DNA of 64,000 bases, taken from assembly GCA_035940575.1 (NCBI GenBank), contig DASZER010000043.1, positions 130,961 to 194,960 on the forward strand, written 5' to 3'. This document shows, piece by piece, positions 35,208 through 40,667 of this stretch. Numbering within the stretch: the stretch's first letter is position 1; each line of letters opens with the position of its first letter. The position numbers and the translations under genes were made by a program. The notes beneath the pieces are model-generated. The model ran no database searches. It was given only the letters and a program-made list of their open reading frames with translations, and was not told the origin of the DNA. This stretch comes from Frankiaceae bacterium (GTDB lineage: Bacteria; Actinomycetota; Actinomycetes; BP-191).

Positions 35208-35368
35208 GTCCGCCCCCCGTCCCGCTGCCGCGCGACGGCCGAGGCGACCGCGTCGGCGACCGTCCGCTCCGGGCCGGCCGGCCACGGGCCGCCGCGCAGC
35301 ACGGTCTCGATCGCGGTCCGCAGCAGGCACGGCGACGGCGCGCGGTCGGTCTCGACGCGGACGTTCAT
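35204..35368 (-). CDS. 54-aa hypothetical protein inside the eCIS operon
   Basis: Tail of track ORF 35204..37186: MNVRVETDRAPSPCLLRTAIETVLRGGPWPAGPERTVADAVASAVARQRDGGRT. ATGA overlap with the AAA+ stop and GTGA overlap with the next start support translation. Confidence 0.4.
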   Translation of the reverse strand: MNVRVETDRAPSPCLLRTAIETVLRGGPWPAGPERTVADAVASAVARQRDGGRT

Positions 35369-37266
35369 CGCGCGCTCCAGGCCTTGCCGAGCTTCTCGTA
35401 CTCGCGGCGCAACGCCCGGTCGACGTGCGCGGGCCCGACCGCCGCGCCGTCCATCGCGGCGAGGAACGCCGCCGACAGCGCCGCCTGCTGGATCGGCCCG
35501 CCCGCGAGCTCGCCCGCCGCGAGCGCGTCGAGGTCGAGGTCGTCCGTCGGCGCGGCGCCGGGGAACGCCCGCCGCCACAGCTCGCGGCGCAGCTCCGCGT
35601 CCGGCAGCTCGAAGCGGATCGAGAACCGCAGCCTGCGCAGGAACGCCTCGTCCAGCGCGGCGCGGCGGTTGGTCGCGAGGATCACCAGGCCGGTGAACGT
35701 CTCCACGCGCTGGAGCAGGTAGTTGACCTCGAGGTTCGCCCAGCGGTCGTGCGCGTCGTGCTGCTCGGTGCGCTTGCCGAACAGCGAGTCGCACTCGTCG
35801 AAGAACAGCACCGCCGCCGCGCGCTCGGCCTCGTCGAACGCGACGGCGAGGTTCTTCTCCGTCTCGCCGATGTACTTCGACACGACCGACGACAGGTCGA
35901 TCCGGTACAGGTCCTGCCCCAGCGCGGCGGCGACGGCCTCGGCGGCGAGCGTCTTGCCGGTGCCCGACGGCCCACCGAACAGCACCGCGACGCCCTGGCC
36001 TCGGGGGAGGCGTCGGCGGAAGCCCCAGTCGTCGAGCACCACGTCCTGGAGGGCGACGTGCGCGACGACCTCGTCGAGCTGCGCGCGCACGTCGGGCGGC
36101 AGCACGAGGTCGTCCAGCGTGAACGCCGGCGCGACGAGCGAGGCGACGCGGTTCAGCTCGTGCTCGGGCTGGCGCCGCGCGGCCTGCCACACGTCGTCCA
36201 GCGCCGGCGTACGGCCCGCCCACGCCGCGTCGAGCGCGGCGCTCGCGACGGCCCTGTCGATCTCCTCCTCGGCGAACGCGAACCGCGCGCCGAGGCGCGC
36301 CGCACCGTCCGCCGCCGCGGCCTCGGCGAAGCCGGCGGCGCGCAGCGCAGCCGTCCAGTGCGCGCGGCGCGCGGCCGGGTCGGGCCGGCGCAGCTCCACG
36401 ACGTGCGCGCCGTACGGCGCGTCGGCCGGGCCGCCGTACGCGAGCAGCGCGCCGTCGCCCGGCGCCCAGGCGAGCTCCTCGAGCCGCGCCGCTTCGACGA
36501 CGGGCAGGGCGGCCTCCAGCCGCGCGAGCAGGCGCAGCTCGGGCGCGGGGCGCGCGTCCTCGACGGCGGGGCGGCCGAGGAGCGCGGCGACGGCGCGAGC
36601 GAGCGCGTGCCCGCCGGCGCCGCGCGGGCCGCGCAGCAGGACGGCGCGCGGGTCCGCGGCGAGGCGGAGCGCGAGGCGTTCGGCCGGCTCGGCGTGGCGA
36701 GGGACCGGCTCCTCGGACGGCTGCGGCGTCGCGAGCGGCGGCAGGCCCGCGAGCACGCGCAACGCCGTCGGCGTCAGACGCAGCGGCCGGTCCGGCCCGG
36801 CGCCGTCCTCGACCACGCCGCCGCGGACGAGCGCGCCGTCCGGCGGCAGCGCGGGCGGCACCGCCACGTCGAACGGCGCGAGCACCAGCCGCAGCAGCGA
36901 CGCGGAGGCGTAACGCCGCCCGCCGTCGTCGTGCGCGCAGCCCAGCACGACGGCGAGCTGCGGGTCCGCGTCGGCCCACCACGCCGCGGCGACCACGAGG
37001 CGTTCGCCGACGTCGAGGGCGAGCACGTCGCCGAGCCTGGCGAACCGTCCGTCGGCGGTCGTCATCGCGTCGACGGCCTTGGCGAACGCCGCGCGGTCGT
37101 CGTCGGAGGCGACCGGCGCCATGCCGACGCCCGCGAGCAGCCGCGCGACGTCGCTGCCCGCGCCGTCGTCGGGCACGGCGGCCCACGTCTCGCGCAGCCG
37201 GGCGAGGTACCCGCCGAACGCCACGTGCAGCGCGTCGAGCGCTGCGACCAGCCCGGGGTCGTTCAC
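35365..37266 (-). CDS. eCIS AAA+ ATPase (Afp15-like)
   Basis: Sub-ORF of track frame 35365..38595 from GTG 37266 (GTGA overlap), 633 aa. Walker A GGPSGTGKTLAAEAVA, Walker B VLFFDECDSLF, VILATNRRAALDEAFLRR, and a long non-ATPase N-terminal region. Confidence 0.9.
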   Translation of the reverse strand: MNDPGLVAALDALHVAFGGYLARLRETWAAVPDDGAGSDVARLLAGVGMAPVASDDDRAAFAKAVDAMTTADGRFARLGDVLALDVGERLVVAAAWWADADPQLAVVLGCAHDDGGRRYASASLLRLVLAPFDVAVPPALPPDGALVRGGVVEDGAGPDRPLRLTPTALRVLAGLPPLATPQPSEEPVPRHAEPAERLALRLAADPRAVLLRGPRGAGGHALARAVAALLGRPAVEDARPAPELRLLARLEAALPVVEAARLEELAWAPGDGALLAYGGPADAPYGAHVVELRRPDPAARRAHWTAALRAAGFAEAAAADGAARLGARFAFAEEEIDRAVASAALDAAWAGRTPALDDVWQAARRQPEHELNRVASLVAPAFTLDDLVLPPDVRAQLDEVVAHVALQDVVLDDWGFRRRLPRGQGVAVLFGGPSGTGKTLAAEAVAAALGQDLYRIDLSSVVSKYIGETEKNLAVAFDEAERAAAVLFFDECDSLFGKRTEQHDAHDRWANLEVNYLLQRVETFTGLVILATNRRAALDEAFLRRLRFSIRFELPDAELRRELWRRAFPGAAPTDDLDLDALAAGELAGGPIQQAALSAAFLAAMDGAAVGPAHVDRALRREYEKLGKAWSAR

Positions 37267-38387
37267 GTGGTCACCGTCGTGGGGAAGGCCGCGCCGGCGA
37301 CGCGCTGCGAGCGAAGGGTGAGGGTGCGCTCGCCCGCGGTCCCGGCGGGGACCACGAACCGCACCTGCGTGGGCGACAGCACCGTCGCCGCCACGCGCGT
37401 GCCGTCGACGAACAGCTCGGTGTCCGTTCCGCAGTGCGCTGTCGTCAGCGTGACGGTCGCGCCCTCGGCGACGGGCGCGCTCGCCGAGAGGATCGTCGGG
37501 ACGACGGTCAGCGCCAGGCTGTCGCCGCGTACCGGAAGGCCCTCCGCGCTCATCGTCACGTCGAGGCGGCGCACGCCGGCGCGCAGGTCGTTGCGCGGCA
37601 GCCGCATCGTCACCGTCGTCGCCGTCGACGCGGTGACGGTCATCGGCCAGCCCGCGTCCGGCGCGCCGGCCGGGTCGCCGGGCTCCGGCGCGAGCGTGAA
37701 CGCCGCGCCCGGCAGCAGGCCGTCGACGGTGACGACGGTCGGAGTGGCCGCCGCGATCCGGCTCGGCGTCGCGCCCGCGAGCCGCGCGCCGCGCGTCGGC
37801 GCGGTGACGAGGCGGCGTTCGCGCACCGGCGGCCCGGGCTCCGACGTCCGCTGCTGCTCGACCGTGACGAGGCTGACGACGTAGCCGACCGACAGCCGGA
37901 TCGGCTCCGACGCCGAGGTCCAGATCTTGGAGAGCGTCTCGAGGTCGAGCGACTCCAGCGCGAACCGCAGCGGCTCCGCGAGCGGCGGCGGCGTCGGCGG
38001 GAGGAACGGCGACCCCGCCCCGACGATCGCGTTCTCGTGCACCGCGCGCATCGCGGCCGCGAGCGCGATGTGCGCGGTCTGCTCCTGGTCTCCGACGGCG
38101 GTCAGGTCGGCGGGGTACGTCGTCAGCAGGTAGTGCAGCTCCAGCGCGAGCGGCGGCGCGCCGCGCGAGGTGTGCGAGCCGGTCGCGGGCGGCTCCATGT
38201 TGCGGTACGCGGCGTTCGGGGCGATGCGGTAGAGGAACCAGTTCAGCCGCGGCCCCTCGGCGTCCCGGTCGAGCGGGCCGACCGTCACCTCGGGGCGGGG
38301 CATCATGCCCGCGTCGACGAGGCCGCGTTCGGCGATGCGCTTGAGCGCGTCGTCCACGACGCGGATCGCCTCGGCGGTGACGGTCAC
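37263..38387 (-). CDS. DUF4255 (Pvc16/Afp16-like) tail terminator/cap protein with C-terminal Ig/IPT-like extension
   Basis: Sub-ORF of track ORF 37263..38558 from GTG 38387 (GTGA overlap), 374 aa. VTVGPLDRDAEGPRLNWFLYRIAPNAAYRN and LELHYLLT match the DUF4255 signature. The C-terminal half is beta-rich (TVVTVDGLLPGAAFTLAP..., TVTLTTAHCG). Confidence 0.8.
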   Translation of the reverse strand: MTVTAEAIRVVDDALKRIAERGLVDAGMMPRPEVTVGPLDRDAEGPRLNWFLYRIAPNAAYRNMEPPATGSHTSRGAPPLALELHYLLTTYPADLTAVGDQEQTAHIALAAAMRAVHENAIVGAGSPFLPPTPPPLAEPLRFALESLDLETLSKIWTSASEPIRLSVGYVVSLVTVEQQRTSEPGPPVRERRLVTAPTRGARLAGATPSRIAAATPTVVTVDGLLPGAAFTLAPEPGDPAGAPDAGWPMTVTASTATTVTMRLPRNDLRAGVRRLDVTMSAEGLPVRGDSLALTVVPTILSASAPVAEGATVTLTTAHCGTDTELFVDGTRVAATVLSPTQVRFVVPAGTAGERTLTLRSQRVAGAAFPTTVTT

Positions 38388-39529
38388 GCGCGGCTCGCAT
38401 GGCGCGACCGCGCGCCGCGCCGGGCGGCGAGCGAGGCGAACGCGTCCGCGGCCGGAGCCGGCGCCGGCGCGGTGACGACGGTGATCTGGTCGATGCGTAC
38501 GGTCGGCTCGGCGGGCGGCGCGGCCTGCGCGGGCGCGGCGGCGGGGGCGTCCCACCACGCCTGCGCGACGTCGGACACGGCCCTGCGGGCCGCACCGCGG
38601 GCGGCGCCCGCGACGTTCGCGGCGGGCGGGGGCGCGGCGGGTGAGACGAGGGCGGTCATTGCCTCGCCTGACGGGGCTGCCTCGACGGCGGGCGGGACCG
38701 TGGGCGGGCCGTCCGCGCCGGCAACCGGCGCCCCACCCTCGCGCGCGGCCAGGTGGGCGGCGACGGTCTGCGCGACGGCGGCATCGGGCGGCCGGGTGGC
38801 GGGCGGCGGGACGGCCGCGGCGGGGGGCGGGGCCGCGGCGGGTGAGACGCGGGCCGACACTGCCGCGGCCGACGGGGCTGCGTCGACGGCGGGCGGGCCC
38901 GTGGGCGGGCCGTCCGCGCCGGCGACCGGCGCCCCGCCCTCGCGCGCGGCCAGGTGGGCGGCGACGGTCTGCGCGACGGCCGCGTCCGCGGCGTCGGGTG
39001 GCCGGGTGGCGGGCGGCGGGACGGCCGCGGCGGGATGGGAGGCCGTGCGGGGCGTCGCGTCGCCGCGTACCGTGGCGGCGGCAGCGGGGCGCACCGCCGC
39101 GACGCCGCTCGCGGTCGGGCCGGTCTCGCCCGTCGCGGCGGTCTCGCCCGTCGCGCCGATCACCGCGCGACCGAGAGGACCGTTCGCACCCGTCGCCGCA
39201 ACGGTCGCCGCGCCACTCGCCACGCCACTCGCCGGGGCAGCGTCCGGTGCCGCGCGGTCGGCGGGACCACCGCTCGCCGCACGGGTCGCGCCGCCCGGCG
39301 CCTTCCCCGCAGGCGAGGTGGCCTCCGCCGCCGAGCCGACCGAGGCCGCCTCCGGCCGCGCCGTCGTCGCGGCGGCCGGCACCACCAGCGCGGCGCCCGC
39401 CTGCACGTCACCGGGGGCGCCCGGCAGCCACCCCGATCCGTCCCCGACCAGGCCGCCCCAGGGCGAGGCCGTACGCACCGCCGGTCGCCGCGCGCGCGCC
39501 ACGAGCCGCGACGCGGCGGAGCCGCTCAC
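38384..39529 (-). CDS. Ala/Pro-rich repeat protein; candidate tail-length tape measure (Afp14 position)
   Basis: Track ORF 38384..39550. Preferred start is GTG 39529, which forms a GTGA overlap with the upstream stop. 381 aa of low-complexity Ala/Pro/Gly sequence with an internal ~67-aa tandem duplication and a C-terminal TVRIDQITVVT segment. Frame chosen by coupling at both ends; a composition-driven artefact cannot be fully excluded. Confidence 0.55.
   Translation of the reverse strand: MSGSAASRLVARARRPAVRTASPWGGLVGDGSGWLPGAPGDVQAGAALVVPAAATTARPEAASVGSAAEATSPAGKAPGGATRAASGGPADRAAPDAAPASGVASGAATVAATGANGPLGRAVIGATGETAATGETGPTASGVAAVRPAAAATVRGDATPRTASHPAAAVPPPATRPPDAADAAVAQTVAAHLAAREGGAPVAGADGPPTGPPAVDAAPSAAAVSARVSPAAAPPPAAAVPPPATRPPDAAVAQTVAAHLAAREGGAPVAGADGPPTVPPAVEAAPSGEAMTALVSPAAPPPAANVAGAARGAARRAVSDVAQAWWDAPAAAPAQAAPPAEPTVRIDQITVVTAPAPAPAADAFASLAARRGARSRHASRA
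38621..39033. repeat. Two-copy tandem direct repeat (about 201 and 210 bp)
   Basis: gtgagacg recurs at 38641 and 38842 (offset 201), and gccgggtggcgggcggcgggacggccgcggcgg recurs at 38791 and 39001 (offset 210). The difference is a 9-bp insertion (gccgcgtcc) in the second copy. The core around ...gtgggcgggccgtccgcgccggc.accggcgcccc.ccctcgcgcgcggccaggtgggcggcgacggtctgcgcgacgg is nearly identical by eye. Confidence 0.85.
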
Positions 39530-40167
39530 CGCCCCTCCGCGACGAGCCACGCGAAGCGGCTACGGCGGTCCGGCGGCAGTGCCTCGATCGTCGCGAGGTC
39601 CCAGCCGTACGTCCTCGCCAGCAGGTGCACCTCGACGTCCGCGTCGTCGAGCACCCGCATCAACGACTCCAGCACCAGCCGCTGCACGTCGACCGGGCTC
39701 TCGACCGTGGCGCCGCACTCCGCGCAGACCGCGACCAACGGCCCCGACAACGTCGTGTCGACGGCGTCGATGTCGTCCGCGGTCGCGGCGCGCGACGGCG
39801 TCCCGACCGTGCAGCGGCGCAGCAGCTCCTCGGTCGCGACGTCGACGTCGGGGGGCAGTCCGGCGAGGTCGGCGTACGTCGGCTCGCGCACGCCGGCACC
39901 CGGCCCCAGCGGCACCGACCGCGGCTCCCACGGCGGCACGGTCCGAGGGCCGAGCAGCACCGAGCTCACCGCGTCGCACGCGCCGCAGGTCAGCGTGAGC
40001 TCGAGGTCGCGACCGGTCACGGCGCGGTGCACGTCGAGCAGCGCGCGGTCGCCCGCGCCGAGGGCCGTGCGCGGCGCGTCGTAGCCGGCCGCCGCGAGCA
40101 GCGCGGTCGCCTGCGCGAGCTCGTCGGGGTGCTCGCGCAGCACGCCGAGCGCGCGCTGGTCGATCAA
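39526..40167 (-). CDS. Cys4 (zinc-ribbon-like) hypothetical protein in the tail-chaperone position
   Basis: Sub-ORF of track ORF 39526..40602. The start is uncertain (TTG 40167 or a GTG a few codons later), about 213 aa. LTCGACDAV ... VAVCAECGATV give a CxxC...CxxC pair. Located between the tube and the putative tape measure. Confidence 0.5.
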   Translation of the reverse strand: MIDQRALGVLREHPDELAQATALLAAAGYDAPRTALGAGDRALLDVHRAVTGRDLELTLTCGACDAVSSVLLGPRTVPPWEPRSVPLGPGAGVREPTYADLAGLPPDVDVATEELLRRCTVGTPSRAATADDIDAVDTTLSGPLVAVCAECGATVESPVDVQRLVLESLMRVLDDADVEVHLLARTYGWDLATIEALPPDRRSRFAWLVAEGR

Positions 40168-40172
40168 CGCGA

Positions 40173-40667
40173 TCAGGCCTCTACCGGCTCGGTCACCGCC
40201 GGGTCGCGTTCCCAGCTCTCGAGCTCGAGCTTGATGGTCTCGATCGCGACCGCGGCGTTGGCGGCGTCGAGCTGCGGCATCGCCTGGTACTCCGACACCC
40301 AGCAGCGGTGCAGGTTGTACGACATCACGCGCTGGCCGGCCTCGTTGAAGACGTCGAGCGTGACGTCCTTGCGGAAGCTCTTGAGCGAGATCGGGTTCTG
40401 CAGCGAGTGGACGAGGTTCGCCCACTTCTCGAACTCGGGGTCGTGGGTGACGCCGCGTTCGAGCGTCACGCCCTCGTACTTCGTCACGCCCGGGCTCTTG
40501 CGCTCGCGCGAGGGGTCCGCGCCGTCGCGGTGGACGACGGGCGTCGTCGTCCGCTTCAGCGCGCTCATCTTCGACAGCCCCGCGACGTAGTTGCCGTCCC
40601 ATCGGACGCGGAACATGAAGGACTTGTACGGGTCGAACCGCGTCGCGTTCACCGTGAACTGCGCCAC
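40173..40667 (-). CDS. Phage tail tube protein (T4 gp19-like, Afp1-like)
   Basis: 164 aa. MAQFTVNATRFDPYKSFMFRVRWDGNYVAGLSKMSALKRTTTPVVHRDG... is a typical gp19/conserved phage tail region pattern. Confidence 0.9.
   Translation of the reverse strand: MAQFTVNATRFDPYKSFMFRVRWDGNYVAGLSKMSALKRTTTPVVHRDGADPSRERKSPGVTKYEGVTLERGVTHDPEFEKWANLVHSLQNPISLKSFRKDVTLDVFNEAGQRVMSYNLHRCWVSEYQAMPQLDAANAAVAIETIKLELESWERDPAVTEPVEA

What the first reader, a model, noticed from the sequence alone, without database searches (positions are those of the whole stretch)
38621..39033. Recent in-frame tandem duplication (201 and 210 bp) inside the putative tape-measure gene
Seen: two adjacent DNA copies, with anchors gtgagacg at 38641 and 38842 and gccgggtggcgggcggcgggacggccgcggcgg at 38791 and 39001. 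They are nearly identical in their core and differ by a 9-bp in-frame insertion. On the minus strand they encode AAAVPPPATRPPDAA(DAA)VAQTVAAHLAAREGGAPVAGADGPPT.PPAV.AAPS... twice. Established: in contractile and non-contractile tails the tape-measure/length-determining protein (Afp14 in eCIS) sets tube length in proportion to its own length. Such genes evolve by internal duplication or deletion. Inference: if this Ala/Pro-rich protein is the length determinant, its position between the chaperone-slot gene and the cap would fit. In that case the duplication predicts a longer particle than in relatives with one copy. It is also a potential recombination hotspot or assembly-collapse risk.
Basis: partly seen in the sequence, partly recalled or inferred. 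Interest (0 to 1): 0.6.

Follow-up and report, generated by a model that had tools for sequence, protein, structure and literature searches.

The report
Tandem duplication in candidate eCIS ruler
A real in-frame tandem duplication of 67-70 residues lengthens the floppy Ala/Pro-rich middle of a protein that sits where phage-tail-like injection systems keep their length ruler, making it the longest member seen of an unnamed family, but whether this protein measures length is untested.

Summary
Window 38624-39034 carries two head-to-tail units of 201 and 210 bp. They are 92.5% identical over 67 aligned codons and differ by one 9-bp in-frame indel. They occur nowhere else in the genome.

They lie in frame in a minus-strand gene, 38384-39529 (381 aa), here called X. 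The gene order is sheath, tube, Cys4 protein, X, Pvc16-type cap, AAA ATPase.

X belongs to an unnamed family with no Pfam, NCBIfam or PDB match. Members share a short N-terminal helix and a C-terminal module of about 40 residues. The middle is hypervariable and predicted to be disordered.

Fourteen members checked by synteny are 159-381 aa long, with a median near 270. The window's protein is the longest, and its nearest relatives have 270-287 aa without a second unit. Family middles commonly carry in-frame tandem repeats, and one near-identical pair differs by a clean 110-aa deletion.

The slot and the fixed ends fit a tape-measure role. The lack of a helical core, the lack of homology to Afp14 and the short chain length argue against a classical one.

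Verdict: the duplication is real and the "tape measure" label is only partly supported. It is a useful natural length allele for an open question in lineage-II injection systems.

The parts
38384..39529 (-). Gene X: 381-aa Ala/Pro-rich protein in the tape-measure slot. It starts at a GTG in a GTGA overlap with the stop of the upstream gene. The longer ORF from 39550 is probably not used.
   Evidence: This frame has the highest GC3. The ORF was translated. N- and C-terminal motifs are conserved in orthologues defined by synteny, and the same GTGA or ATGA start overlap occurs in L006, L008 and L009. A profile finds 96 clusters of related proteins.
38825..39034 (-). Repeat unit 1: 210 bp, 70 codons, aa 166-235. 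It contains a predicted helix at aa 180-197.
38624..38824 (-). Repeat unit 2: 201 bp, 67 codons, aa 236-302. It contains a predicted helix at aa 250-264.
38978..38986 (-). A 9-bp in-frame extra Asp-Ala-Ala in unit 1 (DAA-DAA against DAA in unit 2). Which of the two DAA triplets is the extra one is arbitrary.
39121..39155 (-). A second in-frame micro-duplication in the same gene, younger-looking because it is perfect: 18 bp x 1.9, 100% match, encoding GETAAT-GETG (aa 125-137).
39205..39234 (-). A 12-bp x 2.5 in-frame repeat (88% match) encoding ASGV-ASGA (aa 99-109).
39473..39520 (-). Conserved N-terminal motif (aa 4-19, SAASRLVARARRPAVR), a predicted helix at aa 4-13.
38387..38509 (-). Conserved C-terminal module (aa 341-381, PTVRIDQITVVTAPAPAPAADAFASLAARRGARSRH...). 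This is the only stretch with high model confidence.
   Evidence: mean pLDDT 85-93 for the ten-residue blocks 341-370
39526..40167 (-). Upstream gene: 213-aa Cys4 protein in the chaperone slot, weakly similar to T4 gp51.
   Evidence: PF12322 T4_baseplate is hit by 2 of 7 members, best E 0.0014.
37263..38387 (-). Downstream gene: cap/terminator (Pvc16_N plus a C-terminal TIG domain), 374 aa.
35365..37266 (-). AAA+ ATPase (Afp15/Cis15-like).
40173..40667 (-). Tube protein (Phage_T4_gp19).
40669..42690 (-). Sheath protein (Phage_sheath_1 and Phage_sheath_1C).

Best explanation
Shown:
- A lineage-specific, in-frame, head-to-tail duplication of a 67-70-codon unit lies in the hypervariable middle of gene X.
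- X is translationally coupled into an actinobacterial lineage-II eCIS operon, between a gp51-like Cys4 protein and the cap gene.
- X belongs to an unnamed family with a fixed N-terminal helix, a fixed C-terminal module of about 40 residues, and a Pro/Ala-rich middle that is predicted to be disordered.
- That middle changes by in-frame repeat gain and loss.

Inferred:
- The duplication arose by replication slippage or unequal crossing-over.
- X is the functional counterpart of the tape measure, threaded through the tube lumen during assembly. Its C-terminal module would dock on the hub or spike, and its N-terminal helix would meet the cap or its chaperone. The middle would set, or at least span, the distance between them.
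- On that reading the extra unit (one more amphipathic helix plus a Pro-rich linker) would lengthen the tube. The gain would be about 14-16 nm at the eCIS coefficient of 0.216-0.229 nm per residue. It would be about 10 nm if helical and about 21 nm if polyproline-like, which corresponds to roughly 3-5 tube layers.
- The whole protein, 381 aa against 270-287 aa in the nearest relatives, would give particles about 30-40% longer.
For: - The repeat is real and in frame.
- Only two copies exist in the genome.
- Gene order is sheath, tube, Cys4, X, Pvc16_N cap, AAA ATPase, then tube-initiator/GPD/gpV/gp25/Baseplate_J. X therefore sits beside the cap and ATPase genes, as afp14 does beside afp15 and afp16.
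- The same order tube, Cys4, X, cap occurs in every related locus inspected: L005-L010, L016, L021, L023, L025, L026, L028.
- Only the termini are conserved. A profile search finds 96 clusters.
- Of the 33 representatives with both end motifs, lengths are 226-325 aa (median 274, SD 22) although the middle sequence is not conserved. The spacer between motifs is 330 residues in the window against a median of 212.
- The nearest relatives have X of 274, 287, 270 and 286 aa and no second unit.
- Other members carry in-frame repeats of 9, 12, 18 and 36 bp.
- A near-identical pair differs by a clean 330-bp deletion flanked by a 10-nt direct repeat.
- AlgoCIS Alg14 is a ruler, and duplicating its internal helices lengthens the particle (bioRxiv 10.64898/2026.05.27.728243).
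- Weak gp51 (T4 hub-assembly chaperone) similarity of the upstream Cys4 protein.
Against: - There is no sequence similarity to any tape-measure family, NCBIfam model or solved structure.
- AlphaFold2 predicts coil for most of X: five short helices and pLDDT below 50 for 223 of 381 residues. It predicts the same for a family member with lower Ala/Pro content. Resolved tape measures are coiled-coil helical trimers (PMC10996793), and eCIS tape measures have helical middles (bioRxiv 10.64898/2026.05.27.728243).
- At the eCIS coefficient a typical 270-aa member would give only about 60 nm, shorter than any characterised eCIS. Reaching about 100 nm would need an almost fully stretched chain.
- A 159-aa allele exists in an otherwise intact locus, which could mean that length is not critical.
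- Streptomyces CIS have uniform length without a recognised tape measure (PMC12237407), so other length mechanisms exist in lineage II.
- dN/dS between the units is about 0.5 on only 67 codons, which is not informative.
- There are no expression, read or particle data for this organism.
Confidence: 0.45

Rival explanations
1. X is a structural or assembly factor, for example a hub-to-cap tether, a lumen plug or a scaffold, whose disordered middle is a length-tolerant linker. The ends do the work, the spacer length is not read out, and the duplication is a nearly neutral slippage product.
For: The middle is predicted to be disordered and is not conserved even against a relative whose neighbouring gene is 92% identical. 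Indels are frequent, and a 110-aa deletion allele sits in an intact locus. The chain is short for a ruler. Lineage-II systems are reported to lack Afp14 homologues, and CIS-Sc has uniform length without one (PMC6899500, PMC12237407).
Against: Length clusters at 226-300 aa in most members although the sequence is free to vary. That pattern suggests some constraint on length. All repeats and indels keep the frame. The gene position is that of a tape measure.
Confidence: 0.33
2. The duplication matters through dosage of a motif, not through length. Each unit carries the one mid-protein helix (VAQTVAAHLAAREGG) that is also recognisable in the closest relative. Two copies would double a binding site, for tube lumen, chaperone or cargo.
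For: Predicted helices at aa 180-197 and 250-264, one per unit. The core is retained in L012 as AVAGAVAAHAAAREGG while the flanks diverge. Differences between the units are concentrated outside the helix.
Against: The motif is absent or degenerate in more distant members, so it is not a feature of the family. No partner is known.
Confidence: 0.1
3. The second copy is an assembly artefact of the metagenome-assembled genome, such as two strain alleles joined in tandem.
For: The genome is a MAG of 75 contigs, 80% complete. Reads could not be examined. No independent assembly with this exact protein is on record.
Against: The copies differ at 15 positions and by a 9-bp indel, and they share at most 44 identical bases. 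Reads of ordinary length would resolve them. The frame is kept through both junctions, and other in-frame repeats occur in the same gene and in relatives.
Confidence: 0.05
4. The ORF is not a functional gene. It would be a spurious high-GC ORF or a decaying pseudogene, so the repeat would be non-coding.
For: At 75% GC long spurious ORFs are common on both strands. GC3 contrast is weak in Ala/Pro-rich sequence.
Against: Both termini are conserved in the same frame in 96 clusters and in every syntenic locus. The ORF is uninterrupted and overlaps its neighbours by 4 nt at both ends. All repeat periods are multiples of 3.
Confidence: 0.02

Closest known systems
Afp14 / Pvc14 / Alg14 (Cis14), the tape-measure proteins of lineage-I eCIS
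   Same: The gene lies next to the cap (Afp16-like) and AAA ATPase (Afp15-like) genes and downstream of sheath and tube. The ends are conserved and the middle varies in length. In AlgoCIS, duplicating an internal segment lengthens the particle at 0.229 nm per residue (bioRxiv 10.64898/2026.05.27.728243).
   Different: No detectable sequence similarity. The middle is predicted to be disordered and Pro/Ala-rich rather than helical. X is shorter: 270 aa typically and 381 aa here, against 526 aa for Alg14. afp14 homologues are reported as generally absent from lineage II (PMC6899500).
Tape measures of phages and tailocins (T4 gp29, lambda gpH, P2 gpT, the diffocin tape measure)
   Same: The slot after tube and chaperone genes is the same. 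The principle that in-frame duplications and deletions change tail length is established knowledge from lambda gpH and T4 gp29 (from my own knowledge).
   Different: The diffocin tape measure is a coiled-coil helical trimer spanning the whole tube (PMC10996793). X has about 48% Ala plus Pro and 10% Gly, and only five short predicted helices.
YscP/FliK-type secreted molecular rulers of type III secretion
   Same: These are rulers with repeat-based natural length polymorphism and a linear relation between protein size and needle length. YscP is 452 aa in one Yersinia enterocolitica strain and 538 aa in another (PMC3469391, citing Wagner 2009). They are a precedent for a partly unstructured ruler whose length evolves by internal repeats.
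   Different: They belong to an unrelated machine, have no sequence relationship to X, and work by substrate switching during export. This is an analogy only.
Unnamed 'subtype-specific' genes of lineage-II eCIS (Chen et al. 2019), and the 'absent tape measure' of Streptomyces CIS-Sc
   Same: X and the Cys4 protein fit the description of conserved, domain-less, subtype-specific genes (PMC6899500). Both cases share the open question of what sets length when no Afp14 homologue is present (PMC10066040, PMC12237407).
   Different: This locus has a split spike (GPD and gpV as separate ORFs) and differs in order from CIS-Sc. The X profile hit only 3 of 401 genomes sampled from the class. I could not show that S. 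coelicolor has a member.

Membership tests
eCIS/phage tape-measure protein (Afp14/Cis14, gp29, gpT) | Sequence homology to a known tape-measure family | tested here: not met
   No Pfam hit even at E 10 for 7 members. No NCBIfam hit. No PDB chain beyond chance.
eCIS/phage tape-measure protein (Afp14/Cis14, gp29, gpT) | Gene position: after tube and chaperone genes, next to cap/ATPase or hub genes | tested here: met
   The order sheath, tube, Cys4, X, Pvc16_N cap, AAA occurs in the window and in every related locus inspected: L005-L010, L016, L021, L023, L025, L026, L028.
eCIS/phage tape-measure protein (Afp14/Cis14, gp29, gpT) | Long, mostly alpha-helical (coiled-coil) central region | tested here: not met
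   In the AlphaFold2 model of X, helices are at 4-13, 180-197, 250-264, 311-327 and 365-378 only, with mean pLDDT 51.8. The model of a 239-aa member has helices at 7-16 and 224-227 only. X is 33% Ala, 14% Pro and 10% Gly. Low confidence is not proof of disorder.
eCIS/phage tape-measure protein (Afp14/Cis14, gp29, gpT) | Conserved termini with a middle of variable length | tested here: met
   Alignments A3, A7 and A8 and 96 profile hits.
eCIS/phage tape-measure protein (Afp14/Cis14, gp29, gpT) | Protein length proportional to tube or particle length | not testable with these tools
   No particle length is known for any host of this family. It needs electron microscopy of natural or engineered alleles.
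eCIS/phage tape-measure protein (Afp14/Cis14, gp29, gpT) | Located in the tube lumen, with the C-terminus bound to the hub or spike | not testable with these tools
   Needs mass spectrometry and cryo-EM of purified particles, or at least multimer modelling, which is not available here.
Unnamed fixed-ends / disordered-middle family of actinobacterial lineage-II eCIS (defined here) | N-terminal motif (L/V)xR(L/V)(L/V)ARAxRPxV, C-terminal motif PxVxI(G/D/E)xIxV...DP(F/L)AxL, and synteny between the Cys4 protein and the cap | tested here: met
   The window protein carries both motifs and the synteny.
Extracellular contractile injection system, lineage II (dbeCIS scheme) | Sheath, gp19-type tube, Pvc16_N cap, AAA ATPase, gp25 and Baseplate_J genes; spike split into gp27-like and gp5-like ORFs; no Afp14 homologue | tested here: met
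   Pfam hits. The criteria come from PMC6899500. The exact subtype (IIa or IIc) was not resolved.

The most novel reading that the evidence does not exclude
X and its family are a non-helical, intrinsically disordered Pro/Ala-rich tape measure for a branch of lineage-II contractile injection systems, with their own nm-per-residue constant. The window's 67-70-aa duplication and the 110-aa deletion allele (L023 against L010) would then be natural length alleles that tune particle length and cargo capacity. This would fill the 'missing tape measure' gap noted for lineage II.
Probability: 0.3. Interest if true: 0.7.

Novelty: new variant of a known kind. Interest (0 to 1): 0.45.

Why it matters
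The literature I could search says that lineage-II contractile injection systems lack Afp14-type tape measures. It leaves open how their length is set. Streptomyces CIS, for example, are strictly uniform in length with 'the corresponding gene absent' (PMC12237407, PMC6899500).

A family with fixed ends and a repeat-driven, length-variable middle in the tape-measure slot is an obvious candidate. Natural alleles of 381, about 270 and 159 residues make the question directly testable by electron microscopy.

In AlgoCIS, particle length sets cargo load (bioRxiv 10.64898/2026.05.27.728243). A compact ruler that can be tuned by repeats would therefore also interest people who engineer eCIS.

If the spacer turns out to be length-tolerant, the finding reduces to an ordinary slippage product in a disordered linker.

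Tried and rejected
- Word-indexed homology searches with full-length X and with its C-terminal 71 residues returned nothing, because Ala/Pro words swamp the index.
- tblastn-type search of 40 relatives with X found only the window itself. Orthologues had to be reached through the neighbouring Cys4 and cap genes.
- Exact look-ups of the 381-aa and 388-aa products in other assemblies found nothing.
- The closest relative, L012 (Cys4 protein 92% identical), ends inside the first unit, so its copy number is unknown.
- I first took the representative hits as showing a tight length distribution, and I also saw apparent 97-148-aa 'full-length' members. Looking at the DNA showed that P0049 and P0041 are truncated gene calls, with uncalled gaps of 450-560 nt upstream. 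Many short hits are C-terminal fragments of longer genes (P0008, P0009 and P0011 match L005, L009 and L006). The database length distribution is therefore biased, and I rely mainly on 14 lengths checked by synteny.
- BLAST of the unit against family members gave only compositional matches, so the unit is not a family module.
- I could not establish whether S. coelicolor CIS-Sc has a member. SCO4251 is annotated only as a putative secreted protein (PMC2000904), and the profile hit 3 of 401 genomes of the class. That scan scored only 5 candidates per genome, so its sensitivity is limited.

Full report
**The observation**

The window is 75% G+C. Tandem Repeats Finder reports one array at 38619-39034 with period 201, 2.0 copies, 88% matches and 4% indels. 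The repeat finder gives a 167-nt core that is 91% identical at a spacing of 201, and a 72-nt stretch at a spacing of 210.

In coding orientation the two units are 38825-39034 (70 codons) and 38624-38824 (67 codons). They differ at 15 of 201 aligned bases. Six codons differ synonymously and eight non-synonymously, giving dN 0.060 and dS 0.121. There is also one 9-bp indel, an extra Asp-Ala-Ala.

The unit occurs only twice in the 3.2-Mb genome. The protein's self-alignment lies 15.9 SD above shuffled controls. The duplication is therefore real in the assembly, in frame and far beyond chance.

It is not 'nearly identical'. The longest exact run shared by the copies is 44 nt. That argues against an assembly artefact and against a strong risk of recombination or assembly collapse.

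**The gene**

Frame-specific GC content and the ORF list put the repeat in a minus-strand ORF, 38384-39550. The likely start is the GTG at 39529. It forms a GTGA overlap with the stop of the upstream gene. Orthologues show the same kind of 4-nt overlap, and their N-termini align from this point.

The product, X, has 381 residues: 33% Ala, 14% Pro, 10% Gly, no Cys and no Tyr.

The same gene holds two further in-frame micro-repeats. One is a perfect 18-bp x 1.9 repeat at 39121-39155. The other is a 12-bp x 2.5 repeat at 39205-39234.

**The context**

Pfam assigns the neighbours as follows:
- sheath, 40669-42690
- gp19-type tube, 40173-40667
- a 213-aa Cys4 protein with no family, 39526-40167
- X
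- a Pvc16_N cap with a TIG domain, 37263-38387
- an AAA ATPase, 35365-37266
- then GPD-like, gpV-like, gp25 and Baseplate_J proteins

A BTAD-domain regulator gene lies upstream.

The split spike and the lack of an Afp14 homologue fit lineage II of the dbeCIS scheme (PMC6899500). X lies next to the cap and ATPase genes, as afp14 lies next to afp15 and afp16. It also follows the tube gene and a chaperone-slot gene, as phage tape measures do.

The Cys4 protein has weak similarity to T4 gp51. PF12322 is hit by 2 of 7 orthologues, best E 0.0014.

**The family**

X itself finds nothing in word-indexed searches. Orthologues were reached through the neighbours.

- The same-genus genome G002, a Frankiaceae MAG, has a 286-aa X between the Cys4 and cap genes.
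- Actinomadura sp. 6N118 has 369 aa, Dactylosporangium sp. has 249 aa, and Nostocoides japonicum has 269 aa.
- Two MAGs have 266 and 269 aa.
- Metagenome contigs have 239 and 325 aa.
- The three nearest relatives by cap identity (75%, 68% and 65%) have 274, 287 and 270 aa.

Only two parts align. One is an N-terminal helix motif (LARxLARAxRPxV). The other is a C-terminal module, PxVxI(G/D/E)xIxV...DP(F/L)AxL....

A profile of seven members, run against 1.84 billion representative proteins, finds 96 clusters at E <= 0.001. Many of these are C-terminal fragments. Some of them match internal-start truncations of genes I had read from DNA. Two that looked short and complete have 450-560 nt of uncalled sequence upstream.

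The 33 representatives with both motifs are 226-325 aa long (median 274, SD 22). The spacer between motifs is 330 residues in the window against a median of 212.

Among 14 lengths checked by synteny the window's protein is the longest. The duplication accounts for 67-70 of its excess of roughly 100 residues.

The family has no Pfam, NCBIfam or PDB match. It is sparse, with 3 of 401 genomes sampled from the class.

**How the middle evolves**

The neighbouring Cys4 gene is 92% identical in the closest relative, L012 (dS 0.18). In the same relative X stays conserved for only about 36 residues and then diverges, with large indels.

L012 retains one recognisable unit core (AVAGAVAAHAAAREGG). Its contig ends there, so its copy number is unknown. 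More distant relatives have no second unit.

The two units are far more alike (88% at the protein level) than either is to the L012 counterpart. The duplication therefore most likely postdates that split. In this sense 'recent' is right, but only in relative terms.

In-frame repeats are common in the family. L006 has 36-bp units, L021 has 18-bp and 12-bp units, and L005 has a perfect 9-bp (PAV)n repeat.

One pair is about 96% identical, L010 (269 aa) and L023 (159 aa). They differ by a clean 330-bp deletion flanked by a 10-nt direct repeat, in a locus that is otherwise intact.

**Structure**

AlphaFold2 models X with mean pLDDT 51.8. The helices are at 4-13, 180-197 and 250-264 (one per unit), 311-327 and 365-378. 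Only the C-terminal module is modelled with confidence. A 239-aa member with lower Ala/Pro content is modelled as coil apart from its ends.

Canonical tape measures are helical. The diffocin tape measure is a coiled-coil trimer spanning the tube (PMC10996793). eCIS tape measures have helical middles (bioRxiv 10.64898/2026.05.27.728243).

**Interpretation**

The slot, the fixed ends, the clustering of length without conserved sequence, and the strict preservation of frame all fit a protein that spans a set distance inside the particle. In AlgoCIS a ruler of this general kind has been demonstrated: duplicating internal segments lengthens the particle at 0.229 nm per residue and raises cargo load (bioRxiv 10.64898/2026.05.27.728243).

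On that scale the extra unit would add about 14-16 nm. CIS-Sc has 60 tube layers in 268 nm (PMC12237407), so this is about four layers.

Several points count against a classical ruler:
- There is no homology to known tape measures.
- There is no helical core.
- A 270-aa chain would give only about 60 nm at the eCIS coefficient.
- The 159-aa allele may mean that length is tolerated.
- Streptomyces CIS reach uniform length without a recognised tape measure (PMC10066040, PMC12237407).

I put the ruler or tether reading at 0.45 and a length-tolerant linker at 0.33. A motif-dosage effect gets 0.10, an assembly artefact 0.05 and a non-gene 0.02.

**Comparison with what is known, and novelty**

X works, at most, like Afp14/Alg14 or a phage tape measure. 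It is not a member by sequence or by predicted fold. The nearest analogy for a ruler whose length evolves by repeats is YscP of the Yersinia injectisome, which is 452 aa in one strain and 538 aa in another (PMC3469391).

I found no paper describing this family or a disordered tape measure in eCIS. Earlier notes of this scan reached a similar idea in other genomes. Those notes are not independent evidence.

The duplication is a modest event. Its value is as a natural length allele in a candidate for the 'missing' ruler of lineage II.

Noticed in passing
L010:4626-5435 against L023:3001-3480: Two near-identical (about 96%) alleles of the same family protein, 269 aa and 159 aa. They differ by one clean in-frame 330-bp deletion flanked by a 10-nt direct repeat (CGCCGCCCGC). 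The locus is otherwise intact (sheath, tube, Cys4, X, cap). This is a ready-made natural test of whether spacer length matters.
   Followed up: partly
window 39121-39155 and 39205-39234: The same gene has two more in-frame micro-repeats: a perfect 18-bp x 1.9 (GETAAT-GETG) and a 12-bp x 2.5. The middle has therefore grown by slippage at several scales.
   Followed up: partly
window 39526-40167 (-): The Cys4 protein in the chaperone slot is 43-60% identical across actinobacterial loci, with an invariant YGWDLATIE motif and four invariant Cys. PF12322 (T4 gp51 baseplate-hub chaperone) is hit weakly by 2 of 7 orthologues (best E 0.0014).
   Followed up: partly
P0008, P0009, P0011, P0041, P0049; L024:2439-3001, L025:2551-3001: Public gene calls for this family are often truncated to C-terminal fragments that start at internal Met or Val codons. 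This leaves 450-560 nt uncalled between the Cys4 gene and the called start. Database lengths for the family are therefore unreliable.
   Followed up: partly
one search hit list (cap homologues): The same cap type (50-58% identity) occurs in named isolates: Dactylosporangium roseum and D. cerinum, Yinghuangia seranimata, Geodermatophilus sp., Actinomadura sp. 6N118, and several Streptomyces spp. A more distant set (about 40% identity) includes a Micromonospora sp. These are cultivable hosts in which particle length could be measured.
   Followed up: no
window 37263-38387 (-): The cap protein carries a C-terminal IPT/TIG domain (residues 355-422 of the longer ORF, E 7.9e-5) after the Pvc16_N domain. 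Related caps of about 396 aa also have PF01833 recorded.
   Followed up: no
L012 (Ga0190267_10057429), 1368 bp: The contig of the closest relative ends exactly inside the region homologous to unit 1. A break at that point would be expected if that organism also has a repeat there, but this is speculation.
   Followed up: no
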